DNA from: Solirubrobacterales bacterium
GTDB taxonomy: Bacteria; Actinomycetota; Thermoleophilia; Solirubrobacterales; 70-9
Direction: 5' to 3'
Length of the DNA stretch: 64,000 bases
Assembly: GCA_036525295.1 (NCBI GenBank)
Contig: DATDAQ010000069.1
Span: forward strand, 674-64,673
Shown here: positions 2 to 15,883 of the stretch, piece by piece
How the letters are laid out: every line of letters starts with the position of its first letter
Numbering within the stretch: the stretch's first letter is position 1
Notes under the pieces: model-generated
The model's input: only the letters and a program-made list of their open reading frames with translations
Told to the model about the DNA's origin: nothing
Database searches by the model: none
Made by a program: the position numbers and the translations under genes

Positions 2-2554
2 ATCGAAACGCCCTACCGCTACCGCCTTTCCGCCACCAATGAATTCGGCACCGACACCGGAGACCCCGAGCCCTTCACCCTCGAGCCCCCTGCGGTAATC
101 GTCAAGAGTGCGCTGCCGGTCTCCTACGACGAAGCCACGCTGAGGGGGGAAGTCGACCCCTCCGGCTCGCCGACCGAGTACCACTTCGAGTACCTGACCC
201 AGGCCGAATACGAAGAAAACGGCGGAACCTTTGCCGGCGCCCAGAGCACGCCGGTCACCGAGCTGCCGGCGGGAGAAGGCCTTGTCGTGGTCGAAGCGCC
301 GGTCACCGGCCTCGAAGAGGGGACCCTCTACCGCTTCAGGCTTCTCGCCGAGAACGCCGTGGCCGCGACGAGCGTGGAGGGCCCCGCCTTCGAAACGCTG
401 GCGCGCCCCCCGCTGCAGGAATGCGACAACGCCGAATACCGCACCGGCCTCTCCGCCTTCCTGCCCGACTGCCGCGCCTACGAGCTGGTCACCCCGGCCG
501 AGATGTTGTCGACGACGGGGGGATTGACGCGTCTCGGTTCGTTCAGTTCTGAAGCCGGCCATCGGTTCTTCAACAGCTGGTTCGTCGCGCCGCGCGGGGC
601 GCAAGCCGGCGAGAGCGTTGCCTACAGGGCGATGGTCCCCCGGGTGGACGGCCACCCCTTCCGCGCGCAGCGGGGGGAGGGCGACCACCCCAAAGGCGGC
701 TGGCAGAACGAGCCTTACGGGCTCACCTTCGCCCAAGGGGGGGGAGGCGACGGTGAACCCGGTGGGGTCTCCGCAGATCAGCGTTACGCCCTCTACGAGG
801 TCCTCGGACACGAAACTCCGACGGAGCAGTCCTTCCCTTCAGGCACCTACGTGCGTGTCCCCGCCGGCGAGGCGAGCCGCGCGTGTGCGCCAGAGCCCAT
901 AGCGACGTTCAAACTCTCAGACCCCGAAGGTAAGTTCGAGCTGGCCGGCTGCGGCGACCTCGGCACCGACCTCCATGCCGAGGGGCGCTTCCTGGCCGCT
1001 GCCGGCACACACGTAATCTTCACCTCCGACGAGGAACTGGACTCCGCGGCTCCGACGGCGGGCACCGAAGCGATCTACGATCGCAAAGTCGGCAGCGCCG
1101 CCAGCGAGGTCATCTCCGTCGATCCCGACGGCAACGCCTTCGGCGGCAGCGAAGAGCCGCGCTATCTGGCTGCTACCGAAGACGGCTCCGCTGTCGTCTT
1201 CAGCACGGGTGGCCTCGGCAAAACCCTCTATGTGCACCGTAAAGACAAAACGACACAGGTGACCGATGCTGCCAACACCTACGCGGGCATCTCCGAAGAC
1301 GGCAAACGCGTCTTCTTCATGGACAAACCCTTTTTCCCCAACGCGGAAGTCGACTCACCCCCTCCGGCGACGCTCTTCGCCTGTGACATCGAAGGGGGGA
1401 ATTGCGCCGGCCCCGACCAGGAACAGGAACCGATGGAGATCGCCACCGAGTCGAACTTCGTCAACGTCTCCGCCGACGGCTCCCACGTCTTCTTCACCTC
1501 CGAGGAGACCGAACCGTCCGAAGTCATGGAACTGGGCGAAAACGAAAACGGCGAAGAAGCCGAAGAAGGCGAGGCCAACCTCTATGCATGGGACGGCTCC
1601 AAAGCCAGCTTCGTCGCCATCCTGGACCCTCAAGACCTTGTCAACTTCCGCACGGGAGAAAGCCTCGAGGAGGAACAGCAGCTGGAAGACCTGCTGGCGT
1701 GGACCAGCACGATTCCAGGTCAGCGGGCGACCAGCGGAGGGTCGTATGAGGCCGGGCGCGCCTACTCGCCGGCGCGCAGCACGCCCGACGGCGAGGTCTT
1801 CGCCTTCCAGTCCCACGCCCAGCTCACCTCCTACGACAACGAAGGCAAGGGGGAGATCTACCGCTATGACCCCGCGGCCCCCGTGGGCTCTCAGCTGAGC
1901 TGCGTCTCCTGCGACCCGAGCGACGCTCCCCACGACTCCATTGCCGACACCATCTTCCAGTCTCTCTTCCAGGGGGTCACCAATTCCTCGACGATGATCC
2001 CCAACCTCACCGACGACGGGCGGCGGGTCTTCTTCGAGAGCCGCGAGGCACTTCTGCCTGAGGACGCCAACGCGGTGACCGACGTCTACGGGTGGAAAGC
2101 GCCAGGGACAGCCGGTCCCGGTGGCGACACCTGCGAGGATTCGCGTGGCTGCCTGGCGCTGATCTCGACCGGGCAGGGCGAACTGCCGAGCTTCCTCTAC
2201 GGCATGGGCGCCGACGGCGAAGACGTCTTCTTCGTCACGCAGGAGAAGCTGGTGGGAGCCGACCTGCTCGGCACCTTCTCGATCTACGATGCGCGGGTTC
2301 TCGGCGGCATCCCCGACCCGCCTGCGGCTGCTCCCTGCCAGGGCGACGCCTGTCAGGGACCGGCGTCGACCCCGCCGGACCTGCCGGCTCCTGCCTCGAC
2401 TGGCCCCGGCTCCGAAAGCCCACCGCAGGGTCGCCCCCCATGTGCGAAGGGCAAGCACCGGGTCAAAGGCCGTTGTGTGAAAAAGCACAGCAAGAAAAAG
2501 CAGCGCAAGCACTCGAAGAAACGAGCCAATCAGGACCGGGAGGCACGTCGATGA
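2..2554 (+). CDS. Large secreted repeat protein, 5'-truncated by the window edge. FN3-like repeats are followed by PD40/TolB-like beta-propeller repeats and a Cys-containing Lys-rich C-terminal tail.
   Basis: The reading frame is open from position 2 in the same frame as the listed 287..2554 ORF. It has FN3-like motifs (YRYRLSATNEFG, GTLYRFRLLAEN, TEYHFEY). It has recurring DGxxVxF propeller-blade motifs (DGSAVVFS, DGKRVFFMD, DGSHVFFTSEE, DGEVFAFQS, DGRRVFFESRE, GEDVFFVTQE). The tail reads CAKGKHRVKGRCVKKHSKKKQRKHSKKR. Confidence 0.75.
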   Translation: METPYRYRLSATNEFGTDTGDPEPFTLEPPAVIVKSALPVSYDEATLRGEVDPSGSPTEYHFEYLTQAEYEENGGTFAGAQSTPVTELPAGEGLVVVEAPVTGLEEGTLYRFRLLAENAVAATSVEGPAFETLARPPLQECDNAEYRTGLSAFLPDCRAYELVTPAEMLSTTGGLTRLGSFSSEAGHRFFNSWFVAPRGAQAGESVAYRAMVPRVDGHPFRAQRGEGDHPKGGWQNEPYGLTFAQGGGGDGEPGGVSADQRYALYEVLGHETPTEQSFPSGTYVRVPAGEASRACAPEPIATFKLSDPEGKFELAGCGDLGTDLHAEGRFLAAAGTHVIFTSDEELDSAAPTAGTEAIYDRKVGSAASEVISVDPDGNAFGGSEEPRYLAATEDGSAVVFSTGGLGKTLYVHRKDKTTQVTDAANTYAGISEDGKRVFFMDKPFFPNAEVDSPPPATLFACDIEGGNCAGPDQEQEPMEIATESNFVNVSADGSHVFFTSEETEPSEVMELGENENGEEAEEGEANLYAWDGSKASFVAILDPQDLVNFRTGESLEEEQQLEDLLAWTSTIPGQRATSGGSYEAGRAYSPARSTPDGEVFAFQSHAQLTSYDNEGKGEIYRYDPAAPVGSQLSCVSCDPSDAPHDSIADTIFQSLFQGVTNSSTMIPNLTDDGRRVFFESREALLPEDANAVTDVYGWKAPGTAGPGGDTCEDSRGCLALISTGQGELPSFLYGMGADGEDVFFVTQEKLVGADLLGTFSIYDARVLGGIPDPPAAAPCQGDACQGPASTPPDLPAPASTGPGSESPPQGRPPCAKGKHRVKGRCVKKHSKKKQRKHSKKRANQDREARR

Positions 2555-5544
2555 TCCGCCGCATGGGGTCCTACTTCGAGTTGTGGTGCCGCTTCGCAGG
2601 GCGGCGCGACCACAACTACTCGGGTTTCATGCTGACTCTGGCGCACTTCGCATGGCCGTACCACTTTGTAGGGCGGCGCGACCGCAATCACTGGGGTTAC
2701 CAGGGATCGGTGGCGCCCTACGCCGGGTGGAGCCACTTCGCTGGGCGGCGCCACCGCAAGCATTCGAAGAAGCAGCGGGCCAGCTACAGCCCCGATGAAG
2801 GTACGCCGACGATCCTCTGCATAGGCATAGCTGCCCTGCTGGGGTTTACGGCCCTCACCACCCTTGTCCTGGCCGCTCCCGCGGGAGCGATCGCGCCGCC
2901 CTGTCCCGACAAAGCCTTCAAAGCGAAATGCTTCGCGCTCGAGTCGATCGACGCCTCGCTCTCGACTACTCAAGCGGGTGCCCACCCCAACCTCACCCTC
3001 AGCTTCGATATTGCCCAGGATCCTGAAAGCGAGCCGGACGAGAAGGGCATGCACGACTCCTTCGTGCCGACCCGTAACGTACGCACCGACGTTCCTCCGG
3101 GACTGGTCGGGGACCCCAGCGTGCTCGGGCTGCCTCAGCAGTGCCGGGTGGTCGAACTGGCGGTGGGAGAATGCCCCAACGGCTCCCAGATCGGCACCGT
3201 CAGAGCTGACCTCTACGGCTCCGACGCCGTCTACATCCAACCCCTCTACATGATGGTGCCGCCGGGCGGGGATGTGATCGCGCGGGTGGGCTTCGTCGGC
3301 GGCACGATCGGGACGACCATCTACGCCGATGCGACGCTGCGCTCCGAGGGCGACTACGGTCTCAGCGTCGAAGTCGTCGACGCCCCGGTGGTCAGTGGCG
3401 TGCACCTGGTCGGAGCCGAAACGAAATTGTGGGGGGTGCCGGCGGCCAAAGAGCACGACACCGAACGCTGCACGCCTGGAGAGGTGTTTACGGACAACTG
3501 CACCGAATCGCCCTCGCGCCCCCCCGGTTCGCGCGAACTGCCCTTCCTTACCAACCCGACCCGCTGCGGGGTGCCACTGGAGATGAAAGTCGCCGCCTCC
3601 GGCTGGGCGGAACCGGAACGCTTCGACACCATGACAGCGAGCTTCCCCCAGATCACCGGCTGCAACAAACTGCCCTTTGGCCCGGGCCTCACGATCGAGC
3701 CGACCAACCGGCGTGCGGGGGCGCCGACCGGCCTCGACGTGACTGCCCGGATACCGGCCTCGGAGGGCGCGAAAGTGCTCGAACCCTCCCAGACGCGCGA
3801 TGTCCGCGTGACGCTGCCCGAGGGAATGACGGTCAATCCAGGCGCCGCCGACGGCCTTGATGTGTGCACCGAAGCGCAGGTTAAATTCGGCAAACGGGTG
3901 GCCGCCGAATGCCCCGACGCGGCCAAGCTGGCCGAGTTCGAGGTCGAGATCCCGGCACTGCCGCGGCGGATGAAAGGCGCGATCTATCTGCGTGAGCCCG
4001 AACCGGGCAACCTCTACCGCTTCTGGGCGGTCGCCGACGACCTTGGCGCGCACGTGAAGCTGCAGGGCCAGCTCAACCTGAACGAGCAGACCGGACAGAT
4101 GGAATCGACGATCCTCGACGTCCCCCAGGCACCGGTGCGCGAGATGAAGATCGTCTTCAAGTCGGGCTTTAGGGCGCCGCTGCTCAATCCGCCCACCTGT
4201 GGGGACTACGCCAGCAAATACGAATTCGTCCCCTGGTCGGGTGGCTTGCCGCAGATCTCCAATTCCCATATGACGATCGACGAAGGCTGCGAGGGCCTCG
4301 GGGGCTTCAGCCCGAAGATCTCCGCCGGCTCCACCGACGCCCAGGGTGGTGCCCACTCGCCCTTCTCCCTCACCATCGCACGCCAGGACGGCGAAGAGAA
4401 CCTCGCTGCCCTGGAGATCACCCTGCCCAGGGGCATGGCCGCCACCTTCGCCGGCATCCCGCGCTGCGAAGGCGTAGCGGCCGAAACGGGTCAGTGCTCG
4501 GCCGAGAGCCGCGTCGGCAGGGTTACCGCCTCCGTCGGCGCCGGCTCCAACCCGCTCTGGGTCCCCCAGCCTGGCAAGCGCCCGACTGCCGTCTACCTCG
4601 GCGGCCCCTACAAGGACGCCCCGCTCAGCGTGATCGCCGTCGTGCCCGCTCAGGCGGGTCCCTTCGACCTCGGCGACCAGGTGGTCCGCTCCGCCATTTA
4701 CGTCGACCCGGTCACCGCCCAGGCGACCGCCAAGTCGGATCCGCTGCCACAGATCCTCGAAGGCGTGCCAGTGCGCTACCGCACCACCAACGTCTTCCTG
4801 GACCGCCCGGGCTTCTCCCTCAACCCGACCTCCTGCGCGCGAAAGGCGACGACGTCCGCGATCCTCTCCGCTGGGGGAAAGATCGCCAATCCGTCCTCTC
4901 CCTACGCCGCGACCGACTGCGACAGGCTCGGCTTCAAGCCCCAGCTCGCCATGCGGCTATTCGGCGGCACCCATAGGGGATCCCACCCGAGGCTGCGCAC
5001 GATCCTCAAGATGCCCCCGGGCGGCGCCAACATCGGCAGCTTCTCGGTGGCCCTGCCGCACTCGGCATTCCTCGACCAGGCCCATATCCGCACCGTCTGC
5101 ACCCGAGTGCAGTTTGCCGCGGACCAATGCCCGGCCGGATCGATCTACGGAGCGGTGAAGGCCAGGACCCCCTTGTTCGACGAGACCCTGGAAGGTCAGA
5201 TCTACCTGCGCTCCTCAAACAACCCGCTACCCGACATGGTCGCCGTGGTCAAGGGCCCGCCCTCCCTGCCATTCGAGGTGCACTCGGCCGCACGGATCGA
5301 CTCGGTGAATGGCGGTATTCGCGCCACCTTCGATTCCTTCCCGGATGCCCCGATCACTGAAGCCGTCGCCAGCTTCCCGGGTGGCAGCAAGGGTCTGATC
5401 GTCAACTCGACCAACCTCTGCGCCAAAGTCAACAAGGTCACTGCCAAATTCACCGGGCACAACGGCAAGAAAGCCACGTTGAACCCGGTGCTGAAGGCTT
5501 CCTGCGGTGCGAAAGCAAAACGCCGCGCAGGACGTGGGCGCTAG
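2551..5544 (+). CDS. Large (about 1000 aa) membrane-anchored or secreted hypothetical protein. It has an N-terminal basic 3x24-aa repeat, one hydrophobic anchor or signal segment, and a large extracytoplasmic domain.
   Basis: The ATG at 2551 overlaps the upstream TGA (ATGA), suggesting translational coupling. A hydrophobic segment ILCIGIAALLGFTALTTLVLAAPAGA follows the basic stretch RRHRKHSKKQRA. It is a long uninterrupted ORF with normal GC3-rich codon usage. I recognise no family. The start is uncertain; a GTG near 2710 is an alternative. Confidence 0.7.
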   Translation: MIRRMGSYFELWCRFAGRRDHNYSGFMLTLAHFAWPYHFVGRRDRNHWGYQGSVAPYAGWSHFAGRRHRKHSKKQRASYSPDEGTPTILCIGIAALLGFTALTTLVLAAPAGAIAPPCPDKAFKAKCFALESIDASLSTTQAGAHPNLTLSFDIAQDPESEPDEKGMHDSFVPTRNVRTDVPPGLVGDPSVLGLPQQCRVVELAVGECPNGSQIGTVRADLYGSDAVYIQPLYMMVPPGGDVIARVGFVGGTIGTTIYADATLRSEGDYGLSVEVVDAPVVSGVHLVGAETKLWGVPAAKEHDTERCTPGEVFTDNCTESPSRPPGSRELPFLTNPTRCGVPLEMKVAASGWAEPERFDTMTASFPQITGCNKLPFGPGLTIEPTNRRAGAPTGLDVTARIPASEGAKVLEPSQTRDVRVTLPEGMTVNPGAADGLDVCTEAQVKFGKRVAAECPDAAKLAEFEVEIPALPRRMKGAIYLREPEPGNLYRFWAVADDLGAHVKLQGQLNLNEQTGQMESTILDVPQAPVREMKIVFKSGFRAPLLNPPTCGDYASKYEFVPWSGGLPQISNSHMTIDEGCEGLGGFSPKISAGSTDAQGGAHSPFSLTIARQDGEENLAALEITLPRGMAATFAGIPRCEGVAAETGQCSAESRVGRVTASVGAGSNPLWVPQPGKRPTAVYLGGPYKDAPLSVIAVVPAQAGPFDLGDQVVRSAIYVDPVTAQATAKSDPLPQILEGVPVRYRTTNVFLDRPGFSLNPTSCARKATTSAILSAGGKIANPSSPYAATDCDRLGFKPQLAMRLFGGTHRGSHPRLRTILKMPPGGANIGSFSVALPHSAFLDQAHIRTVCTRVQFAADQCPAGSIYGAVKARTPLFDETLEGQIYLRSSNNPLPDMVAVVKGPPSLPFEVHSAARIDSVNGGIRATFDSFPDAPITEAVASFPGGSKGLIVNSTNLCAKVNKVTAKFTGHNGKKATLNPVLKASCGAKAKRRAGRGR
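2599..2770 (+). repeat. Tandem triplication with an exact 72-nt (24-codon) period at the 5' end of the 2551..5544 CDS
   Basis: The motif GGGCGGCGC(G/C)ACC(A/G)CAA occurs at 2599, 2671 and 2743, spaced 72 and 72 nt apart. It encodes HF(A/V)GRR(D/H)(H/R)(N/K)(Y/H) three times. Confidence 0.8.
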
Positions 5545-5607
5545 TTCCCTCGCTGTGACCTAACCCGGGGAGACGTCCTCCCCTCCATACGTGTTCGCAC
5601 CGCACCG

Positions 5608-5637
5608 GCACCGATCCGTGCGCACGCGGATCGGTGC
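5608..5637 (+). terminator. GC-rich hairpin (GCACCGATCCG / CGGATCGGTGC), copy 1 of 5. It may be a terminator or processing hairpin, or alternatively an operator.
   Basis: It is a perfect inverted repeat with an 8-9 nt loop, 63 nt after the stop of the 2551..5544 CDS. There is no U-tract. Confidence 0.45.
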
Positions 5638-5820
5638 GTGCGCCGACCCATCACCTCGCCAAGTGCAGGGGGAATCGGGCGCCCTCAGGCTGGGGCGACG
5701 AGTAAGGGCAACGAAGCTCGACATCGCGCCACCGGAGGCTCAGGATCGCCTCTGAGAGCCCGCCACCGGCGGGCATCGAGCAAACGATCCCGGCATGCTC
5801 GCGGGAAGGGAGAATCCATC

Positions 5821-6426
5821 ATGAGACTCATCAAGATGTTCGGCCTCGCCGCGCTCGCGGCAGTGGCGGCAATGGCAGTCGTCGGCGCGACGTCGGCCTC
5901 GGCGTCAACTACCACCCAGCTCTGTGGCGTCCACACCTCCTTAACCTGTGGGGACGGCAACGGATCGGCGCAAGTTCACCTGGTCACAGCTGCTGGTACG
6001 GTATTAAAACTGTTAGCAACGATAAGCGTCTTATGTTTAGGGGAGTTATGGCAGCTTGATACCTTAGGCTTAGGCAACCCACAGTCAGTTCACTCTTTAA
6101 CCAAAACAGTCACAGGTTGTGGCACGGGTTCCTCCCACAACAACTGCACGGTGACCGTTCAGGAACAGCCCTTATTCGACGTCTTAAAGACGGGGTTAGA
6201 CGAAGGGGTCGCGACGTCCACAAACGGCCGCTTACGTCTTCAGTGCGCCAACCTTGGTCTCGACTGCGTTTATGACCTAGAAGGTCTCGAACTCGCAGTT
6301 GGGGGCGGGCATTGGACTTTTGACGAAACCCCCACCAATGAATTAGGCGGCAAATTCTTCTGCCCTGACGAAGGGCTCCTGGACGCGTTATTTGAAACAT
6401 TAGGGAACGTGTTCGTACTTCAGTAG
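5821..6426 (+). CDS. Secreted 8-Cys paralog A (201 aa, Sec signal peptide), unknown family
   Basis: The start was chosen by homology with the other four copies (MRL[IVT]K[MT]F..AALA..AAMA.VGA.SASA) and by a GGGAG SD 8 nt upstream. The longer 5638 start is not supported. I counted 16 in-frame TTA codons manually. Confidence 0.9.
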   Translation: MRLIKMFGLAALAAVAAMAVVGATSASASTTTQLCGVHTSLTCGDGNGSAQVHLVTAAGTVLKLLATISVLCLGELWQLDTLGLGNPQSVHSLTKTVTGCGTGSSHNNCTVTVQEQPLFDVLKTGLDEGVATSTNGRLRLQCANLGLDCVYDLEGLELAVGGGHWTFDETPTNELGGKFFCPDEGLLDALFETLGNVFVLQ

Positions 6427-6451
6427 AAACCAGGACTTGAGTGCACAGCAA

Positions 6452-6483
6452 GCACCGATCTGTGCACACACGCGGATCGGTGC
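6452..6483 (+). terminator. Conserved hairpin, copy 2 (slightly degenerate, GCACCGATC / GATCGGTGC)
   Basis: An inverted repeat 25 nt after the paralog A stop. Confidence 0.45.
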
Positions 6484-6584
6484 GTGCGTGAATAGGACAT
6501 CCTGTCAAGTTGCGGGCAAGCTCCCCACTCGGCGGGCATTGAGCAAGCGACCCCGGCGAACGCTCGCCGGAAGGGAGAATCACC

Positions 6585-7193
6585 ATGAGACTCATCAAGA
6601 CGTTCGGCCTCGCCGCGCTCGCGGCGTTGGCGGCAATGGCATTTGTCGGCGCGGCGTCGGTATCGGCCTCGACCAGCACGCAGCTCTGCACCATCCATAC
6701 GGGCTTAACGTGTGGGGCTGGGAGCGCAGCCACTTCGGTTCACATGACCCTAGCAGTAGGAACTGTTGGCAAACTATTAGGCTCGATCAGCGTCTTATGC
6801 TTAGGCGCTTTAGTGGAAGCCGAAGCCTTAGGGTTAGGCAAACCCCAGTCGGTGCACACCACGTCCATGTCGTTCTCAGGCTGCGGTACCGGCTCCGGGC
6901 ACAGCAACTGCACGGTGACCGTACTGGAAGAGCCTTTAGCTAATCTCTTAAAAACTGGGTTAGATGAAGGGATCCTTACTCCTACAAATGGTCGCATTTT
7001 GCTCCATTGCTCCAATCTTGGCATATACTGCACGTATGACCTCGAAGGTCTTGAATTGGAAGTCGGCGACCAACACCTAACCATGGAAGAAACCCCCGCC
7101 AAAGAATTAGGCGGCAAATTCTTCTGCCCCGACGAAGGGCTCCTAGACGGGTTATTGAAAACCACGTTTGCGAATACATACGTACTTCAGTAG
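6585..7193 (+). CDS. Secreted 8-Cys paralog B (202 aa)
   Basis: It has signal peptide MRLIKTFGLAALAALAAMAFVGAASVSAS and the conserved Cys pattern and motifs LKTGLDEG, ELGGKFFCPDEG. An SD GGGAG lies upstream. I counted about 12 TTA codons. Confidence 0.9.
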   Translation: MRLIKTFGLAALAALAAMAFVGAASVSASTSTQLCTIHTGLTCGAGSAATSVHMTLAVGTVGKLLGSISVLCLGALVEAEALGLGKPQSVHTTSMSFSGCGTGSGHSNCTVTVLEEPLANLLKTGLDEGILTPTNGRILLHCSNLGIYCTYDLEGLELEVGDQHLTMEETPAKELGGKFFCPDEGLLDGLLKTTFANTYVLQ

Positions 7194-7213
7194 TCGTCTG
7201 AATACTGAGTTCA

Positions 7214-7245
7214 CGCACCGATCCGTGCACACGCGGATCGGTGCG
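7214..7245 (+). terminator. Conserved hairpin, copy 3 (CGCACCGATCCG-8nt-CGGATCGGTGCG)
   Basis: A perfect 12-bp stem 20 nt after the paralog B stop. Confidence 0.45.
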
Positions 7246-7428
7246 TGCGCTGTCTGGTCATCTCGCCAGGTGCAGGGAATCGTATGCCCCTCTGGATCGG
7301 GGTGATGGATGGAGATAGCAGAGCTCGACATCGCAGCGCCGGAGCCTCAGGATCGCCTGTGAGAGTCCGCCACTCGGCGGGCATCTAGCAAACGATCCCG
7401 GCAACCTTCGCCGGAAGGGAGATCCACC

Positions 7429-8034
7429 ATGAGACTCGTCAAGACGTTCGCCTCCGCGGCGCTCGCGGTGTTGGCGGCAATGGCATTCGTCGGCGCCACC
7501 TCAGCGTCGGCCTCGACTACCACCCAGCTCTGTGGTATCCACAACTCCTTAACCTGTGGAGACGGCAACGGATCGGCGCAGGTTCATCTGGTCCTTGCTG
7601 CTGGCACGGTATTACAACTATTAGCAACGATAAACGTCTTATGTTTAGGGGAGTTATGGGAGCTTGATACCTTAGGCTTAGGCAATCCACAGTCAGTTCA
7701 CACTTTAACCCACACAGTCTCGGGTTGTGGCACAGGGCCCTCCCACGACAACTGCACAGTGACCGTTCAGGAGCAGTCTTTATTCAACGTCTTAAAGACG
7801 GGGTTAGATGAAGGGGTCGCGACGTCCACGAACGGCCGCTTACGTCTCCAGTGCGCCAACCTTGGTCTCGACTGCGTGTATGACCTAGAAGGTCTCGAAG
7901 CCTCAGTTGGGAACGGGCATTGGACTTTTGAAGAAACCCCCACCAATGAATTAGGCGGCAAATTCTTCTGCCCCGACGAAGGTTTCGTCCACGCGTTACT
8001 GGAAACATTAGGGGACGTGTACGTCCTTCAGTAG
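7429..8034 (+). CDS. Secreted 8-Cys paralog C (201 aa), closest to paralog A
   Basis: Same architecture as the others and very similar to A along its whole length. I counted 16 TTA codons. Confidence 0.9.
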   Translation: MRLVKTFASAALAVLAAMAFVGATSASASTTTQLCGIHNSLTCGDGNGSAQVHLVLAAGTVLQLLATINVLCLGELWELDTLGLGNPQSVHTLTHTVSGCGTGPSHDNCTVTVQEQSLFNVLKTGLDEGVATSTNGRLRLQCANLGLDCVYDLEGLEASVGNGHWTFEETPTNELGGKFFCPDEGFVHALLETLGDVYVLQ

Positions 8035-8057
8035 AAACGGGCCTTGAGTGCACAGCA

Positions 8058-8089
8058 CGCACCGATCCGTGCACACGCGGATCGGTGCG
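8058..8089 (+). terminator. Conserved hairpin, copy 4
   Basis: A perfect 12-bp stem 23 nt after the paralog C stop. Confidence 0.45.
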
Positions 8090-8272
8090 TGCGCTGTCTG
8101 GTCATCTCGCCAGGTGCAGGGGGACTCGAGCCCTTCTGGATCGGGGTAATGAATGGAGATAGCAGAGCTCGACATCGCAGCGCCGGAGCCTCAGGATCGC
8201 CTGTGAGAGCCCGCCACTCGGCGGGCATCTAGCAAACGATCCCGGCAACGCTCGCCGGAAGGGAGATTCACC

Positions 8273-8878
8273 ATGAGACTCACCAAGATGTTCGGCCTCG
8301 CCGCGCTCGCGGCGGTGGCGGCAATGGCATTCGTCGGCGCGACGTCGGCGTCGGCCTCCGCTAACACGCAGCTCTGCACCGTCCATACAGGCTTAACATG
8401 TGGGGCTGGGAACGCAGCCACTTCGGTTCACTATGTTCTGACAGCCGGCACGGTACTGACAGTGTTAGCTGAAATTGATGTTTTATGTTTAGGCTATTTA
8501 CTGGAAAAAACCGCATTAGGATTAGGGAATCCCCAGTCGGTTCACACTACAACCCAGACGTTCTCGGGCTGCGGCACCAACGCCACGCACACCAACGCCA
8601 CGGTGACCGTTCAGGAACAGCCTTTAGCCAACCTCTTAAAGACGGGGTTAGACGAAGGAGTCTTAACAGCCACAAACGGACGCCTAAGAATTGTGGTTTC
8701 CAGCCTCGGCCTTGACTGCGTAATCGATACCGCAGGCCTGGAACTCGCAGTCAGCGAAGGGATGCTCACCGCGAATGAAACTCCCCTCACGGAATTAGGT
8801 AGCAAATTCTTTTGCCCCAACGAAGGAGTGCTGGATGCGTTACTGGAAGCATTAGGGAGCGTTTACGTTCTCGGATAA
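8273..8878 (+). CDS. Secreted paralog D (201 aa), the 6-Cys variant
   Basis: Same architecture as the others. Two of the eight conserved Cys are replaced together (NC->NA and LQC->IVV). I counted about 14 TTA codons. Confidence 0.9.
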   Translation: MRLTKMFGLAALAAVAAMAFVGATSASASANTQLCTVHTGLTCGAGNAATSVHYVLTAGTVLTVLAEIDVLCLGYLLEKTALGLGNPQSVHTTTQTFSGCGTNATHTNATVTVQEQPLANLLKTGLDEGVLTATNGRLRIVVSSLGLDCVIDTAGLELAVSEGMLTANETPLTELGSKFFCPNEGVLDALLEALGSVYVLG

Positions 8879-8898
8879 AAGCTTTAAGGCAGCCACCA

Positions 8899-8930
8899 CG
8901 CACCGATCCGTGCACACGCGGATCGGTGCG
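8899..8930 (+). terminator. Conserved hairpin, copy 5
   Basis: A perfect 12-bp stem 20 nt after the paralog D stop. Confidence 0.45.
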
Positions 8931-9116
8931 TGCGCTGTCTGGTCATCTCGCCAGGTGCAGGGGGAATCGGGCGCCCCTCAGACTGGGGCGATGGGTAGGG
9001 GTAGCAAAGCTCGACATCGCATCGGCGGAGGCTCAGGATCGCCTGTGAGAAGCCCGCCGCTCGGCGGGCACTGAGCAAGCGACCCCGGCGAACGCTCGCC
9101 GGAAGGGAGATTCACC

Positions 9117-9719
9117 ATGAGACTCATCAAGACGTTCGGCCTCGCCGCGCTCGCGGCGGTGGCGGCAATGGCATTCGTCGGCGCGACATCGGCGTCGGCC
9201 ACCAGCACGCAGGTCTGCACCTCCCACACGGGCTTAACCTGTGGGGCTGGACAAGGAGCGGGCACGATCCATGCGGTTCTCGCAGCCGGCACGGTCTTAA
9301 AGCTCTTAGCCCCAATAAATGTCTTATGTTTAGGAGAGTTATGGGAATCCACTGCCTTAGGGTTAGGTAATCCACAGTCGATTCATTTCACAAGCAAAAC
9401 ATCCACTGGTTGTGGCACCGGATCGGCGCACAGCAACTGTACGTTAACTACACAAGAACAACCATTAGCCAATCTATTAAAGACAGGGTTAGATGAAGGC
9501 ATCTTGACATTAACAAGTGGCCGTTTACGTCTACAGTGCCCCAATATCGGCATCGACTGCGTGTATGACGCTGAAGGCATCGAACTCGCGGGCGGAGGCG
9601 GGCACTGGACCATGGAAGAAACCCCCACCAATGAATTAGGCGGCAAATTCTTCTGCCCCGACGAAGGACTCATCGACTCGTTAATGGAAACGTTAGGAGA
9701 GGCGCACATCCTCGGGTAG
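9117..9719 (+). CDS. Secreted 8-Cys paralog E (200 aa), third subtype
   Basis: Same architecture as the others. I counted about 17 TTA codons. Confidence 0.9.
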   Translation: MRLIKTFGLAALAAVAAMAFVGATSASATSTQVCTSHTGLTCGAGQGAGTIHAVLAAGTVLKLLAPINVLCLGELWESTALGLGNPQSIHFTSKTSTGCGTGSAHSNCTLTTQEQPLANLLKTGLDEGILTLTSGRLRLQCPNIGIDCVYDAEGIELAGGGGHWTMEETPTNELGGKFFCPDEGLIDSLMETLGEAHILG

Positions 9720-9734
9720 GTCCAAGGTGGAACT

Positions 9735-9760
9735 GCACCCCGCCAAGTTCGCCGGGGTGC
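9735..9760 (+). terminator. Distinct GC hairpin closing the array (GCACCCCG-10nt-CGGGGTGC)
   Basis: An 8-bp perfect stem 15 nt after the paralog E stop. There is no U-tract. Confidence 0.45.
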
Positions 9761-10069
9761 GGTCCGCCGCTCTAGAAACCAAATACACCGTCGGCATACT
9801 TCGAGCTTGCGCCCTTAGGCGCGTGCGCGTTTTCGATATGTTGTGGTTTGCAGGCAATTGTGACGCATCGAGCTTCTGGGGTTGAGTGTGTTGGAGAAAT
9901 CGCCTTGATTGGCAGTCGGCGAACTGTTATTTCATACACACCCCTTGCCAGGCAGTAGAAACCAGCGTCGCTGGGGACTCCGGCTCGGTCTGTGGGTTTG
10001 GACAACGTTCGGTGCTGAAGCCCTACCGAGCGTGTTTGTGATGAGCCATAAGTCGACCCCCTACTTTCG

Positions 10070-13000: not shown

Positions 13001-13621
13001 CTGGATGTCGGTGCCGAGCAGCATCTTGCCGCCCTGGGGCAGGAGCGAGACGCTGGTCTGGATCGGCAGCCGCCGGCCGGTTGCCGCGAAGGCCTCGCGG
13101 GCGCCGAAGATCGCCGCCTTCACCTCGAGGATGTCCTGCGCGGTCTCGATAATGATCAGGTCGGCGCCGCCCTCGACCAGACCCCGGGCCTGCTCGGCGA
13201 AGACCTCGACCAGGCGGACGAAGGTGATGTCGCCCAGGGTGGGGTCGGTGGAGGCGGGGAGGAACCCGGTCGGCCCGATCGAGCCGGCGACGAAGCGGTC
13301 GGGCCCCGCCGCCTTGCGGGCGATCTCGGCCGCCCTGACGTTGATCTCAAGCGTGTGCTCGCCCAGGCCCCACTCTTCGAGCTTCAGCCGCGAGCCCTGG
13401 AAGGTGTCGGTCTCGACCACCTCGGCACCGGCATCCAGCATCGATGCGTGCACGCCCTCGATCGTGTCGGGCCGGTTCAGCACCAGCGCCTCGTGACATT
13501 TGCCCTCCAGCCCGCCGTAATCCTCCTGGGTCAGCTCGAACTGCTCCAGGGTCGCGCCCATGCCGCCGTCGAAGACGACGACGCGCTCGCGCGTAGCGGC
13601 TATGAAGTCACGCTCGGCCAT
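10070..13621 (-). CDS. metH: Cobalamin-dependent methionine synthase
   Basis: It is 1183 aa with an Hcy-methyltransferase N-terminus, a pterin-binding region, the B12-binding motif GDVHDIGK, and a C-terminal AdoMet-activation domain. Confidence 0.95.
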   Translation of the reverse strand: MAERDFIAATRERVVVFDGGMGATLEQFELTQEDYGGLEGKCHEALVLNRPDTIEGVHASMLDAGAEVVETDTFQGSRLKLEEWGLGEHTLEINVRAAEIARKAAGPDRFVAGSIGPTGFLPASTDPTLGDITFVRLVEVFAEQARGLVEGGADLIIIETAQDILEVKAAIFGAREAFAATGRRLPIQTSVSLLPQGGKMLLGTDIQAVLTTLAALDVDVIGLNCSTGPEDMRDAIRFLGENSPLPVHCIPNAGLPLQGPDGETIFPEEPEPLAATLGEFVERYGVGIVGGCCGTTPAHVAAIRERVDGRVPGERPAPGPPQVSSMMTSTPLVQEPRPTLVGERVNSQGSRKAKELLLADDYDGLVQVAEDQVEGGAHVLDVCVALTERSDEDEQMAAVVKRISLTQPAPVQVDSTEPEVIRAALEQIPGRAIVNSVNLEAGREKADVVVPIAKAHGAALIALTIDEVGMAKTAERKVEVAKRIRDIACEDHGLNPEALIFDALTFTLTTGEAEWRPSAVETIDGIRRIKAELPGVKTSLGVSNVSFGVSQPARAVLNSVFLHHCVEAGLDLAMVNPNHITPYSEISTSERELTDDLVFDRREDALERFIAHFESKGEEAAEEAGDPTEGMEPEDALHWHILRRKKDGVEVWIDRSVEKIGAVPTLNEVLLPAMKEVGDKFGAGELILPFVLQSAEAMKRAVAQLENYLDRIDGHTKGKVVIATVFGDVHDIGKSLVNTILTNNGYTVIDLGKQVPVDAIIEAAVENEADAIGLSALLVSTSKQMPICVQELHQRGLGFPVLIGGAAINRDFGRRTLYPQGKESDEVYGPGVFYCKDAFQGLDTMDALVDEEAREALVSRIRAEAQELREKPAKADDGPPTTDASVRSAARTDVPVPEPPFWGVREVEIDLDQVFPHLDRHVLFKLHWGGRGVKGEAWRQLVEGADGEEGFAPRLERMWHEQDYLHPRARLGYFPAAADGNELVVFDPEDAGRELERLAFPRQPKHDRICLADFFRPLKSGERDVVALQGVTVGPEVTELIERLEREGEFAEQLFVHGLGVQAAEGLAEWLHSEVRRDLAIPLDQGRRYSWGYPACPDQSEHEKVWRLLDLEQIGMTLSGGYAVLPEQSTVAIVAHHPQAVYFGMKSGFIPEDEAPDELIAGTVRGRVGGTTGPAHSHRSAPR

Positions 13622-15337: not shown

Positions 15338-15883
15338 CTACGAGCAGCCGCGCAAGCCGTACGCCGCGGTCAGCTGGGGCGTTTCCTTGAAGCTCCCTTG
15401 GGCTTCGAGGAAGGCCTGGTTGAAGGCTTCGGGGTCTTCAGCTGCTTCGTTGATCCCCTTCTGCACGGCTTCCAGGTAGGCGGCGATCTCCTGCTCGTCA
15501 CCGCTGGGCGCGCCGAGCGCGCTGATTTCGTCGATCTGCGTTTGGTAGATCTTCGCGAAATCGTCTTCGTAGAATTCGATTTCGAAGGGAGTTTCCGTGG
15601 GTTTCCGCGGGTTGTCGCGGGCTTCTTCGAAGATTGCCTTCAGCTGCGTTTCGAACTTTTCCGCGGCCTTCCTGCAGATCGGTTCCACCCTCTTGATGAA
15701 CGCCGCTTTCGAGAGCGATCCGGTATCGACGGTGATTTCGGTGCTGCCGCCGGAGGAGCCGGTTGCCGAGTCGTCGCTGTCGCCGCATCCCGCCGCGAAA
15801 AGGAGGGCAAAGGCGGTTGCCGCGATGACGAAGAGGCCTCGTATGGTCAAGAAATTCCCCCGCATTCGGGCGCAGCATAGCAT
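15338..15883 (-). CDS. Hypothetical lipoprotein
   Basis: Lipobox LFAAGCG follows a hydrophobic N-terminus. The start could be 15883 or 15865. No family recognised. Confidence 0.6.
   Translation of the reverse strand: MLCCARMRGNFLTIRGLFVIAATAFALLFAAGCGDSDDSATGSSGGSTEITVDTGSLSKAAFIKRVEPICRKAAEKFETQLKAIFEEARDNPRKPTETPFEIEFYEDDFAKIYQTQIDEISALGAPSGDEQEIAAYLEAVQKGINEAAEDPEAFNQAFLEAQGSFKETPQLTAAYGLRGCS

What the first reader, a model, noticed from the sequence alone, without database searches (positions are those of the whole stretch)
5608..9760. Five-gene head-to-tail array of unknown secreted 8-Cys proteins with an exactly conserved 844-bp period
Five paralogous genes of about 200 aa sit in tandem, each with a classic Sec signal peptide (MRLIKTFGLAALAAVAAMAFVGATSASA) and a conserved 8-cysteine mature domain. 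Shared motifs are QLC, LTCG, VLCLG, GCGTG, NCTVTV, LQC, LDCVYD and KFFCPDEG. Start-to-start spacings are 764, 844, 844 and 844 bp. The 844 value is kept exactly even though gene length (609 vs 606) and spacer length (235 vs 238) vary in compensating ways and the mature domains have diverged substantially. I do not recognise the family. The near-identical 240-bp direct repeats between units make the array a natural substrate for copy-number change or gene conversion.
Basis: seen in the sequence. Interest (0 to 1): 0.8.

Follow-up and report, generated by a model that had tools for sequence, protein, structure and literature searches.

The report
TTA-locked secreted protein gene array
Five tandem genes for an unknown secreted, disulfide-rich protein of soil Solirubrobacterales write about half of their leucines as TTA, a codon these genomes otherwise almost never use, which ties the family to one odd tRNA that is always followed by a divergent arginyl-tRNA-synthetase-like gene and may mean the codon has a special reading.

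Summary
The array is real: five paralogous 200-202-aa genes, each with a Sec signal peptide and 8 cysteines (6 in gene 4), with start spacings of 764/844/844/844 bp. It comes from a Solirubrobacterales MAG. The family is large (1690 clusters) and has no Pfam, NCBIfam, PDB or fold match. It occurs as arrays of 1-7 copies, including in chromosome-level assemblies, usually beside two large conserved extracellular proteins.

The exact 844-bp period is not special: two spacings are identical units and one is a single 3-nt coincidence.

Each gene carries 12-17 TTA codons. TTA is 54% of leucine codons in the mature domain, against 1 in 5327 in background genes. The TTAs are locked to the same ~13 columns across the family. 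They are confined to this domain in multidomain proteins, and they sit at polar positions, whereas CTN leucines sit at hydrophobic ones.

The only UUA-reading tRNA found in these bacteria is a divergent 73-nt tRNA(UAA). In 20 of 21 testable loci an ArgRS-fold paralog follows it, in a conserved operon with chorismate-using enzymes.

My leading reading is dedicated decoding or recoding of TTA (~0.45). Ordinary leucine under tRNA-dependent translational control is close behind (~0.38). Mass spectrometry would decide.

The parts
2..2554 (+). Conserved neighbour 1: large extracellular protein with PD40/TolB-like propeller repeats and a basic C-terminal tail. Its 5' end is cut off by the window edge.
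   Evidence: The stop-to-stop ORF runs from base 2. There is a weak PD40 hit and repeated DGxxVFF motifs. Homologs at 37-81% identity flank family genes in L014, L016-18, L020, L022, L023, L027, L028 and L030-32. It has 0 TTA codons and GAA/GAG 42/38.
2872..5544 (+). Conserved neighbour 2: ~890-aa Cys-containing secreted protein with no known domain. The start coordinate is approximate.
   Evidence: Homologs align from residue ~261 of ORF 2092-5544, at 59-96% identity, next to family genes in L001, L012, L016-18, L020, L023, L028, L030 and L031. No Pfam, NCBIfam or PDB hit. 0 TTA codons.
5602..5820 (+). Leader of unit 1: terminator-like hairpin (~5608-5637), promoter-like TCGACA-N17-CAGGAT (5718-5746), 5'UTR hairpins, SD-adjacent hairpin (5789-5805) and SD GGAAGGGAG.
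   Evidence: Repeat families D6/D7, sequence, spacer alignment. The SD-adjacent hairpin is conserved in 56/56 family leaders, with C-G to U-A covariation.
5821..6426 (+). Gene 1 (201 aa): signal peptide plus 8-Cys domain, 16 TTA codons.
6427..6584 (+). Leader of unit 2: hairpin variant and 5'UTR, but the 86-nt promoter-like block is deleted.
   Evidence: Spacer alignment. This deletion explains the 764-bp spacing.
6585..7193 (+). Gene 2 (202 aa): 12 TTA codons.
7194..7428 (+). Leader of unit 3: hairpin block 7209-7287, promoter-like 7325-7353, SD-adjacent hairpin 7397-7414.
7429..8034 (+). Gene 3 (201 aa): 16 TTA codons. Used as the reference for numbering and for the structure model.
   Evidence: AlphaFold2 model with pLDDT 84.6, all-beta.
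8035..8272 (+). Leader of unit 4: 17-bp perfect hairpin (~8055-8092), promoter-like 8169-8197, SD-adjacent hairpin 8241-8258.
   Evidence: Fold -43.6 kcal/mol, z -4.7..
8273..8878 (+). Gene 4 (201 aa): 14 TTA codons. Has lost Cys109 and Cys142 together.
8879..9116 (+). Leader of unit 5: hairpin block 8894-8972, promoter-like 9011-9039, SD-adjacent hairpin 9085-9102.
9117..9719 (+). Gene 5 (200 aa): 17 TTA codons.
9726..9768 (+). Terminal GC-rich hairpin that closes the array. It differs from the inter-unit hairpin.
   Evidence: Fold -31.8 kcal/mol, z -5.25.

Best explanation
What it is. The array is five diverged copies of a transcription unit. Each unit has a terminator-like hairpin, its own promoter-like element (missing before gene 2), a structured 5'UTR and a gene. 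Each gene encodes a Sec-exported all-beta domain of about 172 aa with four disulfides. The domain belongs to a large, uncharacterised, extracellular family of Solirubrobacterales, which works together with two large conserved secreted neighbours. The array evolves by duplication and gene conversion.

How it works (the inferred, committed part). About 14 codons per gene are TTA. These genomes otherwise avoid that codon, so every chain must be read about 14 times by a UUA-decoding tRNA. The only such tRNA seen in these bacteria is a divergent 73-nt class-I tRNA(UAA) with a 4-nt variable loop, encoded ~20-40 nt upstream of a deeply divergent ArgRS-fold synthetase-like gene. That gene sits in a conserved operon with PabAB-like, chorismate-mutase/P450, N-oxygenase, GNAT and deacetylase genes.

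I infer that TTA in this family is not just a synonym of the CTN leucine codons. I take it to be a separately decoded position class served by this dedicated tRNA/synthetase-like pair, that is, natural recoding of a nearly unassigned sense codon used almost only by this protein family. The residue delivered is unknown. It could still be leucine, another standard amino acid, or a product of the operon.

Shown:
- the anatomy of the units;
- the codon statistics, the column lock and the restriction of TTA to this domain;
- the polar environment of TTA positions;
- the tRNA-to-ArgRS-like linkage.

Inferred:
- that this tRNA reads these codons;
- that the paralog charges it;
- that the residue differs from ordinary leucine.
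For: 1. TTA is 897 of 1675 Leu codons (54%) in 65 mature domains, against 1 of 5327 in high-GC3 background ORFs of the same loci. The window genes carry 12-17 TTA each, and other long ORFs in the window carry 0-1.
2. Thirteen conserved Leu columns are 95-100% TTA (61/61, 59/59, 60/60 and so on), with only 8 other Leu codons in about 720 cells. Conserved Cys, Gly, Pro, Thr, Ala and His columns drift freely. Of 63 Leu-containing columns, 54 are at least 80% one codon class. TTA is in frame 900 times, against 53 and 16 in the other two frames.
3. The lock is stronger than the gene-wide GAA (92%) and AAA (73%) preference. Unlike that preference, TTA is confined to the 8-Cys domain in three multidomain ORFs: 27 of 72 Leu inside the domain, 6 of 288 outside.
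4. TTA columns behave as polar or exposed positions and CTN-Leu columns as buried ones.
   - Replacements in 302 domains are T/E/S/V/A/K at TTA columns and V/I/F/Y at CTN columns.
   - Hydropathy of the replacing residues is -0.66 against +1.72 (p=2e-4).
   - In the strand-face test, TTA positions average -1.17 and CTN positions +1.55 (p=0.002).
   - Signal-peptide leucines are never TTA.
5. tRNA linkage.
   - A 73-nt tRNA(UAA) with a 4-nt variable loop is nearly invariant in four genomes.
   - In a metagenome scan, 16 of 17 testable loci of this tRNA type, plus 4 of 4 genome loci, have the ArgRS-like gene directly downstream, even at 36-57% protein identity and after operon rearrangement.
   - None of 92 other type-I tRNA(YAA) loci has it.
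6. The partner protein has a full ArgRS fold (top 20 Foldseek hits are all ArgRS, TM 0.55-0.60) at only 12-18% identity.
   - It scores 82 bits on TIGR00456, against a cutoff of 262.
   - The HIGH motif is intact.
   - The segment after the conserved DG, which in ArgRS contacts arginine (from memory), is replaced by a family-conserved PTQH(M/L)R.
7. In S. coelicolor, LeuRS needs a 5-nt variable loop on type-I tRNA-Leu. A 4-nt mutant keeps only slight activity (PMC6614811).
8. It is unlikely that two independent rarities in one lineage would concern the same codon by chance.
Against: - The tRNA keeps the classic bacterial tRNA-Leu identity set (A73, A14, A15:U48, G18G19). It is clearly related to ordinary type-I tRNA-Leu(UAA) genes of other high-GC actinobacteria such as Nocardioides, so LeuRS may still charge it.
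- TTA mixes with TTG, CTN, Val and Ile in a few variable hydrophobic columns: 138, 187, 75 and 111.
- The charge-compensation test was inconclusive, and Arg is not enriched among replacements.
- A natural experiment in Ig-like repeats did not discriminate. All five extra-domain TTAs lie in polar columns, but so do many CTN leucines there.
- The strong GAA/AAA bias shows that purely codon-level selection does act on these genes.
- AlphaFold2 folds the domain confidently with Leu at these positions.
- Family genes are not next to the tRNA/ArgRS-like operon, except 4 kb away in L006.
- tRNA genes can keep synteny without a functional link; the Nocardioides-type tRNA stays next to BI-1/YccA.
- I could not scan whole genomes for a second, ordinary tRNA-Leu(UAA) or for a canonical ArgRS.
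- No natural sense-codon expansion of this kind is known, so the prior is low.
Confidence: 0.45

Rival explanations
1. Standard code with a single-tRNA gate (bldA-like) or kinetic control. TTA is ordinary leucine. The family is kept rich in TTA, and in GAA and AAA, so that its translation depends steeply on the level or modification state of minor U34 tRNAs, above all tRNA-Leu(UAA). That tRNA is co-transcribed with a condition-specific operon. Alternatively, the TTAs are programmed slow sites needed for export and folding of a 4-disulfide domain. Column bimodality arises because moving between the TTR and CTN codon islands needs disfavoured intermediates (TTG, CTA). The polar bias arises because leucines gained from A-ending polar codons become TTA, while those gained from GTC, ATC or TTC become CTC.
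For: - The tRNA carries Leu identity elements and is related to ordinary actinobacterial type-I tRNA-Leu(UAA).
- LeuRS charges type-I tRNA-Leu in S. coelicolor, and a type-I body with a UAA anticodon can replace bldA there (PMC6614811).
- The GAA (92%) and AAA (73%) preference, and the TTA:TTG ratio of 94:6, are the same kind of A-over-G choice.
- The neighbouring extracellular genes also shift to GAA/AAA.
- TTA mixes with other Leu codons and with Val/Ile in columns 138 and 187.
- In the CTN columns that contain TTG, TTA also occurs at low frequency.
- The prior favours the standard code.
Against: - A gate needs only a few TTAs anywhere in the gene, so selection per site should be weak. Yet leakage to TTG, CTA or CTN is about 1% at 13 sites, over divergence where dS is about 1, against 8% for GAA and 27% for AAA.
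- CTN columns almost never gain TTA.
- In multidomain proteins the GAA/AAA bias runs through the whole gene, but TTA is confined to this domain.
- The polar/hydrophobic partition is significant in two tests.
- This reading does not explain why this tRNA, unlike ordinary type-I tRNA-Leu(UAA), has a 4-nt variable loop and an obligate ArgRS-like partner.
Confidence: 0.38
2. Relic with no function. The domain arose in, or was acquired from, a lower-GC lineage or mobile element. Its AT-shifted codons, including TTA, are an incompletely ameliorated ancestral state or the product of a local AT-biased mutation regime. The tRNA/ArgRS-like operon is unrelated and serves small-molecule biosynthesis, with a dedicated tRNA comparable to the non-proteinogenic tRNA-Gly used for staphylococcal cell-wall synthesis (from memory).
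For: - The array is a low-GC island, 55-58% against 69%.
- Amino-acid composition is also AT-shifted: more N, T and K, less A, R and P.
- tRNA-Phe lies next to family genes in L021 and L025, as at island integration sites.
- The operon looks like secondary metabolism.
- The family and the operon are not linked on the chromosome.
Against: - The family has diverged to about 30% identity within high-GC genomes, while other synonymous sites drift freely. Unselected TTA would have decayed.
- NCG codons remain common, so there is no general G-to-A pressure.
- Leu codons are bimodal (TTA or CTC/CTG), with no excess of CTT, CTA or TTG.
- The signal peptide of the same genes uses normal high-GC codons.
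- dN/dS of 0.2-0.65 and the conserved cysteines show that the proteins are made, so a UUA decoder must exist.
Confidence: 0.08
3. Nucleotide-level signal. The TTA triplets, and other frozen stretches such as ATGAGACTCATCAAGATGTTCGGCCTCGC and GGCAAATTCTTCTGCCC, are conserved as DNA or RNA motifs. Candidates are binding sites for a silencer of AT-rich DNA, sites for an RNA-binding protein, or ribonuclease or toxin cleavage sites.
For: - The first ~30 nt of the coding sequence are conserved at the nucleotide level across the whole family: AGA at codon 2 in 62/62, AAG at codon 5 in 61/61.
- K178 is AAA in 46/46.
- The array is an AT-rich island, which would suit Lsr2-like silencing.
Against: - TTA is overwhelmingly in frame (900, against 53 and 16), and the flanking bases show no common context.
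- The spacing between TTAs is irregular.
- Other AT-rich synonymous options are not used.
Confidence: 0.03
4. The array itself is an assembly artefact (collapsed or expanded repeats) of a short-read MAG.
For: - The source is a metagenome-assembled contig.
- The leaders share blocks of up to 96-100% identity over about 80 nt.
Against: - The units differ at 10-33% of mature-domain positions, and each unit is unique.
- The same architecture recurs in many independent assemblies, including chromosome-level ones.
Confidence: 0.01

Closest known systems
bldA regulon of Streptomyces (tRNA-Leu(UAA) and TTA-containing developmental genes)
   Same: Both occur in a high-GC actinobacterium in which TTA is almost unused. 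In both, a defined set of genes depends on the single UUA-reading tRNA, and the targets include secreted or developmental functions.
   Different: - bldA targets usually carry one or two TTAs at arbitrary places. Here there are 12-20 per domain, locked to the same columns across an order-level family and restricted to one domain.
- bldA is a type-II tRNA-Leu charged by LeuRS (PMC6614811). Here the tRNA is type I with a 4-nt variable loop and is hard-linked to an ArgRS-like gene.
pylT-pylS-pylBCD (pyrrolysine) and selenocysteine systems, including multi-UGA selenoprotein P
   Same: In both, a codon avoided elsewhere is used at conserved positions in a restricted protein set. A dedicated tRNA is encoded next to a dedicated synthetase-like gene, and candidate amino-acid-biosynthesis genes lie in the same operon.
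   Different: - Those systems recode stop codons. This would be a sense codon.
- The synthetase here has a class I ArgRS fold, not PylRS or SerRS/SelA.
- There is no biochemical evidence for a non-standard residue.
- The tRNA still looks leucine-like.
ProRSx-tRNA(ProA) deliberate mistranslation pairs in Streptomyces (recalled from Vargas-Rodriguez et al. 2021, not re-read here)
   Same: In both, an actinobacterial synthetase paralog is encoded together with an anomalous tRNA whose anticodon belongs to another amino acid's codon box.
   Different: - That pair causes proteome-wide, low-level mistranslation of a common codon.
- Here the codon is virtually private to one protein family and is position-locked.
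Bacterial sense-codon reassignments found by Codetta, and ACA to Asp in Acidimicrobiales (PMC8629427; bioRxiv 10.64898/2026.05.03.722492)
   Same: In both, a rare codon in a compositionally extreme genome acquires a new reading. The Acidimicrobiales case is also an A-ending codon in high-GC Actinomycetota.
   Different: - Those reassignments are inferred from many conserved housekeeping columns.
- Here the codon is absent from housekeeping genes, so profile-based inference is blind to it.
- Neither paper mentions TTA or Solirubrobacterales.
Type-I tRNA-Leu of Actinobacteria (S. coelicolor tRNA-Leu(CAA); Nocardioides-type tRNA-Leu(UAA))
   Same: Both are class-I cloverleaves with A73, A14 and A15:U48, and the D-loop begins AAUCGG.
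   Different: - The variable loop has 4 nt instead of 5.
- The acceptor stem differs: GCACCAG against GCCCCCG.
- The ArgRS-like neighbour is obligate here and is never seen with the ordinary type.

Membership tests
Any curated protein family or known fold (Pfam-A, NCBIfam, PADLOC, PDB, BFVD) | Significant profile or structural match of the mature 8-Cys domain | tested here: not met
   - Pfam: 0 hits. NCBIfam: only noise, E >= 0.013 and far below cutoff. PADLOC: 0 hits.
- A PDB profile search found 0 hits at E <= 10.
- Foldseek best hits: PDB E 0.15, TM 0.28; BFVD E 0.11.
- The query model has pLDDT 84.6.
bldA-type TTA-dependent regulon | TTA is very rare genome-wide and present in the regulated genes | tested here: met
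   Background 1/5327 Leu codons, against 12-17 TTA per gene.
bldA-type TTA-dependent regulon | The decoder is a conventional (type II) tRNA-Leu(UAA) charged by LeuRS | tested here: not met
   The only tRNA(UAA) found is 73 nt, class I, with a 4-nt variable loop. Charging cannot be tested with these tools.
bldA-type TTA-dependent regulon | The tRNA is dispensable for growth and is regulated by condition or development | not testable with these tools
   The only indication is the tRNA's position at the head of an operon that looks like secondary metabolism.
Natural genetic-code expansion cassette (Pyl-like logic) | A dedicated tRNA gene adjacent to a dedicated synthetase gene | tested here: met
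   The ArgRS-like gene follows the tRNA(UAA) directly (about 20-40 nt in most loci) in 20 of 21 testable loci, and in 0 of 92 loci with other type-I tRNA(YAA).
Natural genetic-code expansion cassette (Pyl-like logic) | The codon is used at conserved positions of a restricted protein set and avoided elsewhere | tested here: met
Natural genetic-code expansion cassette (Pyl-like logic) | Biosynthesis genes for the special amino acid are in the cluster | tested here: inconclusive
   PabAB-like, CM_2/P450, Lys/Orn-type N-oxygenase, GNAT and HDAC-like genes are co-conserved with the pair. Their product is unknown, and they would equally fit a natural-product pathway.
Natural genetic-code expansion cassette (Pyl-like logic) | A non-standard residue is demonstrated at the codon | not testable with these tools
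   This needs mass spectrometry. The sequence-based proxies disagree: polar environment, inconclusive charge test, uninformative Ig-repeat control.
Arginine--tRNA ligase (canonical ArgRS), for the tRNA's partner gene | Scores above the curated family threshold, with N-terminal, catalytic and DALR domains recognisable by sequence | tested here: not met
   - TIGR00456 scores 82 bits, against a cutoff of 262.
- Only 63 residues around HIGH hit PF00750.
- No DALR or N-domain hit.
- Best PDB sequence hit is E 4e-10, over the catalytic half only.
Arginine--tRNA ligase (canonical ArgRS), for the tRNA's partner gene | Overall ArgRS fold and HIGH signature | tested here: met
   - The top 20 Foldseek hits are all ArgRS, TM 0.55-0.60 over about 600 columns. 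The model is only moderate: pLDDT 61, pTM 0.66.
- ALH(I/V/A/G)GHLRN is conserved down to 37% identity.
Actinobacterial type-I tRNA-Leu | A73, A14, A15:U48 and G18G19 | tested here: met
   Read directly from the sequence. The identity set is as listed in PMC6614811.
Actinobacterial type-I tRNA-Leu | Five-nucleotide variable loop (required by S. coelicolor LeuRS) | tested here: not met
   - All 19 metagenomic copies of this type and the 4 genomic copies (73 nt by ARAGORN, 2 nt longer in L085) have a 4-nt loop (NGAU).
- The ordinary type-I tRNA-Leu(UAA) genes whose sequence I parsed have a 5-nt loop.
- The requirement is from PMC6614811.

The most novel reading that the evidence does not exclude
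In Solirubrobacterales, TTA is in effect a private codon for an additional, genetically encoded amino acid.
- The ArgRS-derived enzyme charges the 73-nt tRNA(UAA) with a non-canonical residue made by the adjoining chorismate-utilising operon. The operon encodes PabAB-like and chorismate-mutase-like enzymes, as in p-aminophenylalanine pathways, plus a P450, an N-oxygenase and an acetylation/deacetylation pair.
- The ribosome inserts this residue at about 14 surface positions per domain of this extracellular protein family.
- This would be the first natural sense-codon expansion of the genetic code.
Probability: 0.2. Interest if true: 0.98.

Novelty: new variant of a known kind. Interest (0 to 1): 0.85.

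Why it matters
Whichever reading holds, the array is the visible end of something not described before. An abundant soil-bacterial protein family is written in a codon dialect that the rest of the genome does not use, with codon choice conserved site by site over deep divergence.

If TTA is ordinary leucine, this is the most extreme case known of a gene family tied to a single rare tRNA. That reading would imply a bldA-like switch outside Streptomyces, acting on extracellular proteins, or a strict requirement for translation kinetics in folding and export.

If TTA is read by the ArgRS-like/tRNA pair as something else, it is a natural reassignment or expansion of a sense codon. Profile-based code predictors cannot see it, because the codon is absent from conserved genes.

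The question can be tested directly by mass spectrometry and by a tRNA census of genomes that are already closed. The pair would also interest synthetic biology as a naturally orthogonal tRNA/synthetase system.

Tried and rejected
- **Known RNA elements.** An Rfam scan of the whole window at gathering thresholds found nothing, so no known riboswitch or leader lies in the spacers. The window contains no tRNA.
- **Consensus promoter/terminator scan.** It found nothing meaningful in the spacers. The promoter-like TCGACA-N17-CAGGAT and TTGAC-type elements were read by eye from family alignments and are unverified.
- **Diversifying selection.** Rejected as the main force. Pairwise dN/dS of the mature domains is 0.2-0.8.
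- **TTA = arginine (from the ArgRS fold).**
  - The family is Arg-poor (1.2%) and acidic (net charge -11), and would be near neutral if TTA were basic.
  - But TTA count correlates positively with both acidic and basic residues.
  - Net charge varies more under that model.
  - Arg is not enriched among replacements.
  - I therefore treat this as not supported.
- **The one real extra-family TTA in a housekeeping-like gene (PabAB of L034).** It aligns to E and R in orthologs, at a variable linker. Uninformative.
- **Ig-repeat natural experiment in L157.** It looked striking but failed its own control.
- **Other TTA-rich genes.** A search of all fetched loci found none.
- **Family genes near the tRNA/ArgRS-like operon.** A search of the other 124 loci fetched after L032 found none.
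- **Canonical ArgRS.** A search of about 1 Mb of fetched loci found none, which says nothing about its presence elsewhere.
- **Last homology search.** It showed only that the ordinary type-I tRNA-Leu(UAA) locus is from Nocardioides. It did not show whether Solirubrobacterales also keep such a tRNA.
- **Literature.** Searches found no report of TTA bias or recoding in Thermoleophilia or Solirubrobacterales.

Full report
**1. Observation**

Start spacings are 764, 844, 844 and 844 bp.

The proteins are 66-85% identical to gene 1 and open with a Sec-type signal peptide ending A-S-A. They share eight cysteines. Gene 4 has lost C109 and C142 together, as has one copy in another genome, which suggests that these two pair. 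The contig is from a Solirubrobacterales MAG, where the genes are annotated as hypothetical proteins.

**2. Unit anatomy and the 844-bp period**

Each unit consists of five elements:
- a 15-17-bp perfect GC-rich hairpin without a T tract (-43.6 kcal/mol, z -4.7);
- a promoter-like TCGACA-N17-CAGGAT;
- a 5'UTR with small hairpins;
- a hairpin that abuts the Shine-Dalgarno sequence;
- the gene.

The SD-adjacent hairpin is present in 56 of 56 family leaders from many genomes, with C-G to U-A covariation. The spacer before gene 2 lacks the 86-nt promoter block, which explains the 764-bp spacing.

Two of the three 844-bp spacings are simply the same 606+238 layout. The third combines one extra codon with a spacer 3 nt shorter. 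I regard this as a coincidence.

Different segments of a unit have different nearest paralogs. The mature region pairs gene 1 with gene 3, the leader pairs 3 with 4, and the signal peptide pairs 4 with 5. Signal-peptide dS (0.05-0.4) is far below mature-domain dS (about 1). Both point to gene conversion or nucleotide-level constraint at the 5' ends. Mature-domain dN/dS is 0.2-0.8, so selection is purifying to relaxed, not pervasively diversifying.

**3. The family**

A word-indexed search found 116 relatives, all hypothetical proteins from Solirubrobacterales MAGs or soil metagenomes. An exhaustive profile search found 1690 clusters at 50% identity with E <= 1e-3, and 804 with E <= 1e-10. These include two- and three-domain tandem fusions and fusions to Ig-like (Big_3_5), FN3, trypsin-like, GDSL-lipase and DUF6531 modules. 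The domain is therefore an extracellular module.

Thirty-two genomic loci from about a dozen MAGs carry 1-7 copies, often in tandem and sometimes with frameshifted copies. One chromosome-level assembly has at least 10 copies within 25 kb.

There is no match in Pfam, NCBIfam, PADLOC or PDB sequences. The AlphaFold2 model is all-beta and confident (pLDDT 84.6), yet has no significant Foldseek neighbour in PDB or BFVD.

The two large genes upstream in the window flank family genes in at least 14 other loci:
- a PD40-like propeller protein, cut off by the window edge;
- an ~890-aa Cys-containing secreted protein with no known domain.

The three therefore form a conserved functional neighbourhood.

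**4. The codon anomaly**

The array is a low-GC island, 55-58% against about 69%. The cause is specific. Each gene has 12-17 TTA codons, whereas six other long ORFs in the window have none.

Every family member in every genome, down to 30% identity, has 8-20 TTAs. Pooled over 65 mature domains, TTA is 897 of 1675 Leu codons. In high-GC3 ORFs of the same loci it is 1 of 5327. The few apparent background TTAs lie mostly upstream of real starts or in spurious frames. No other TTA-rich gene exists in about 435 kb of related sequence.

Thirteen conserved leucine columns (reference codons 41, 65, 71, 73, 76, 82, 84, 118, 122, 126, 175, 190 and 194) are 95-100% TTA. Together they hold only 8 other leucine codons. 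Conserved Cys, Gly, Pro, Thr, Ala and His columns drift freely between synonymous codons. A second set of leucine columns is CTC/CTG, with 0-2 TTAs. Of 63 columns that contain leucine, 54 are at least 80% one codon class. TTA is in frame 900 times, against 53 and 16 in the other frames.

GAA (92% against 15%) and AAA (73% against 12%) are also strongly preferred. The neighbouring large genes share that preference at about 50%, and it runs along the whole ORF in three multidomain relatives. TTA, by contrast, is confined to the 8-Cys domain: 27 of 72 Leu inside, 6 of 288 outside.

**5. Are TTA positions ordinary leucines?**

In 302 aligned domains, the residues that replace leucine at TTA-locked columns are mainly T, E, S, V, A and K. 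At CTN columns they are V, I, F and Y. Mean hydropathy of the replacements is -0.66 against +1.72 (p = 2e-4). An independent strand-face test uses only neighbouring non-leucine columns. It places TTA positions on the polar side (-1.17) and CTN leucines on the hydrophobic side (+1.55; p = 0.002). Signal-peptide leucines are CTC, essentially never TTA.

Against a different meaning:
- TTA mixes with TTG, CTN, Val and Ile in a few variable hydrophobic columns.
- A charge-compensation test was inconclusive.
- In a 19-repeat Ig-like protein, five extra-domain TTAs fall in columns where the other repeats have E, S, T, G or H. But CTN leucines in those repeats often sit in polar columns too, so the case does not discriminate.

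**6. The decoder**

The window has no tRNA. In L006, 4.2 kb from a family gene, lies a 73-nt class-I tRNA with anticodon UAA and a 4-nt variable loop. A 560-aa gene with a HIGH motif follows it directly.

That protein scores far below the ArgRS thresholds. It nevertheless adopts a full-length ArgRS fold at 12-18% identity, with motifs conserved down to 37% identity within its own family. From memory of the yeast ArgRS structure, the Tyr and Asp that hold the guanidinium group are replaced by a conserved PTQH(M/L)R segment. This mapping was not verified here.

The same tRNA, nearly invariant, precedes the same gene in three further genomes. A metagenome scan for class-I tRNAs with YAA anticodons returned 19 of this type. 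Sixteen of the 17 with enough flanking sequence have the ArgRS-like gene immediately downstream, including versions at 36-57% identity and rearranged operons. None of the 92 other tRNAs does.

The operon is conserved in this order: alpha/beta-hydrolase | tRNA > ArgRS-like > PabAB-like > GNAT > HDAC-like > chorismate-mutase/P450 > N-oxygenase > PQQ-propeller.

The other tRNAs include a widespread ordinary type-I tRNA-Leu(UAA) with a 5-nt variable loop. It comes from high-GC actinobacteria such as Nocardioides. A class-I shape is therefore not in itself abnormal in this phylum. In S. coelicolor, LeuRS charges type-I tRNA-Leu, but needs a 5-nt variable loop (PMC6614811). The Solirubrobacterales tRNA keeps A73, A14 and A15:U48, which are leucine identity elements, but has the shortened loop.

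**7. Weighing the readings**

These results are firm:
- the family and the array;
- the private, position-locked, domain-restricted use of TTA;
- the polar bias of TTA positions;
- the specific tRNA(UAA)-to-ArgRS-like linkage.

The meaning is inferred.

A bldA-like gate or kinetic control with ordinary leucine is the conservative reading. It is supported by the leucine-like tRNA and by the parallel GAA/AAA bias. It struggles with four things: the very strong per-site conservation at 13 or more sites, the domain restriction, the polar/hydrophobic partition, and the peculiar tRNA with its partner.

A dedicated decoding system explains all of these with one cause. It also explains why two rarities in the same lineage concern the same codon. 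But it has no precedent for a sense codon and no biochemical support.

I put dedicated decoding or recoding at about 0.45, ordinary leucine with tRNA-dependent control at about 0.38, and relic or motif explanations at about 0.1. A specifically non-canonical amino acid made by the operon is about 0.2.

**8. Limits**

- I could not scan whole genomes, so I do not know whether Solirubrobacterales also have an ordinary tRNA-Leu(UAA) or a canonical ArgRS.
- I could not read model coordinates to measure burial.
- The column statistics ignore phylogenetic non-independence, although both codon classes are compared within the same alignment.
- The promoter assignments are by eye.
- The function of the protein domain itself remains unknown. 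It is extracellular and disulfide-bonded, probably a binding or assembly module that acts with the two large neighbours.

Noticed in passing
L006 8-1793 (-); L033 3897-5686; L034 3902-5668; L035 3904-5674; L036 7535-20023; many of L038-L150: A conserved operon is headed by the 73-nt tRNA(UAA). It encodes an ArgRS-fold paralog, a PabAB-like ADC/anthranilate-type synthase, GNAT, an HDAC-like deacetylase, chorismate-mutase(CM_2)/P450, a Lys/Orn-type N-oxygenase and a PQQ-like propeller. An alpha/beta-hydrolase, and often a thiolase-like TLP1 gene, lie upstream. It looks like a tRNA-dependent pathway, or an amino-acid pathway of the p-aminophenylalanine type.
   Followed up: partly
window 2-5544 and homologous regions of L012, L016, L020, L028, L031: Both large conserved neighbours end in a Cys-containing motif followed by a strongly basic tail (...CAKGKHRVKGRCVKKHSKKKQRKHSKKRANQDREARR; ...LKASCGAKAKRRAGRGR). 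The tail motif LKASCG(K/A)K.. is conserved even in distant genomes. This may be a sorting or anchoring signal.
   Followed up: no
all family genes, first ~30 nt of the CDS (e.g. window 7429-7458): The start of the coding sequence, (A/G)TGAGACTCATCAAGATGTTCGGCCTCGC, is conserved at the nucleotide level across the whole family. The rare Arg codon AGA at codon 2 is present in 62/62 copies, and AAG at codon 5 in 61/61. This suggests an RNA-level constraint on the translation-initiation region.
   Followed up: partly
L021 5430-5503; L025 1520-1592: In L021 an ordinary tRNA-Phe(GAA) lies ~500 bp upstream of a family gene. The same tRNA-Phe, with the same upstream sequence, occurs in L025, ~4.4 kb upstream of that MAG's family gene. 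This is the arrangement seen at integration sites of genomic islands.
   Followed up: no
L020 7990-8885 and 9832-10691: Within a seven-unit array, two copies are split by frameshifts and are probably pseudogenes. This shows birth-and-death turnover in arrays of a long-read assembly.
   Followed up: no
L031 5613-7470; L019 5949-7179; P0237, P0259, P0260 and others: Two or three 8-Cys domains are fused in one ORF, each keeping its own TTA set. The domain also occurs fused to very large surface proteins: P0377 (2710 aa) with about 19 Ig-like repeats and a GDSL lipase, and P0301 (1585 aa) with trypsin-like and FN3 modules.
   Followed up: partly
window 2-5544, 15338-16216 (-), 36711-37733 (+): A minority of window ORFs, including the two extracellular neighbours, prefer GAA and AAA, while housekeeping genes use 85-100% GAG and AAG. 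This hints at a class of genes with a distinct codon dialect.
   Followed up: no
L037-L156 (63 loci), e.g. L037 7658-7733: A widespread type-I (74-77 nt, 5-nt variable loop) tRNA-Leu(UAA) occurs in high-GC contigs. It usually sits next to a BI-1/YccA membrane protein, a uracil-DNA glycosylase and Ppx/GppA. L037 is from Nocardioides. Class-I tRNA-Leu(UAA) therefore seems common in Actinomycetia beyond the published S. coelicolor tRNA-Leu(CAA).
   Followed up: partly
L017 4-849 (-), L018 329-2416 (+) and 4-729 (-), L024 4-747 (-): A conserved DNA element that contains TTA recurs in four loci. It reads ...SPPKK[L]SGDPHP... in what appears to be a non-coding frame. Its nature is unknown, and it may be the end of a gene on the other strand.
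   Followed up: no
window 9720-13621: The array is followed, convergently, by a B12-dependent methionine synthase gene (metH, 10070-13621, - strand). Rfam detected no riboswitch anywhere in the window.
   Followed up: no
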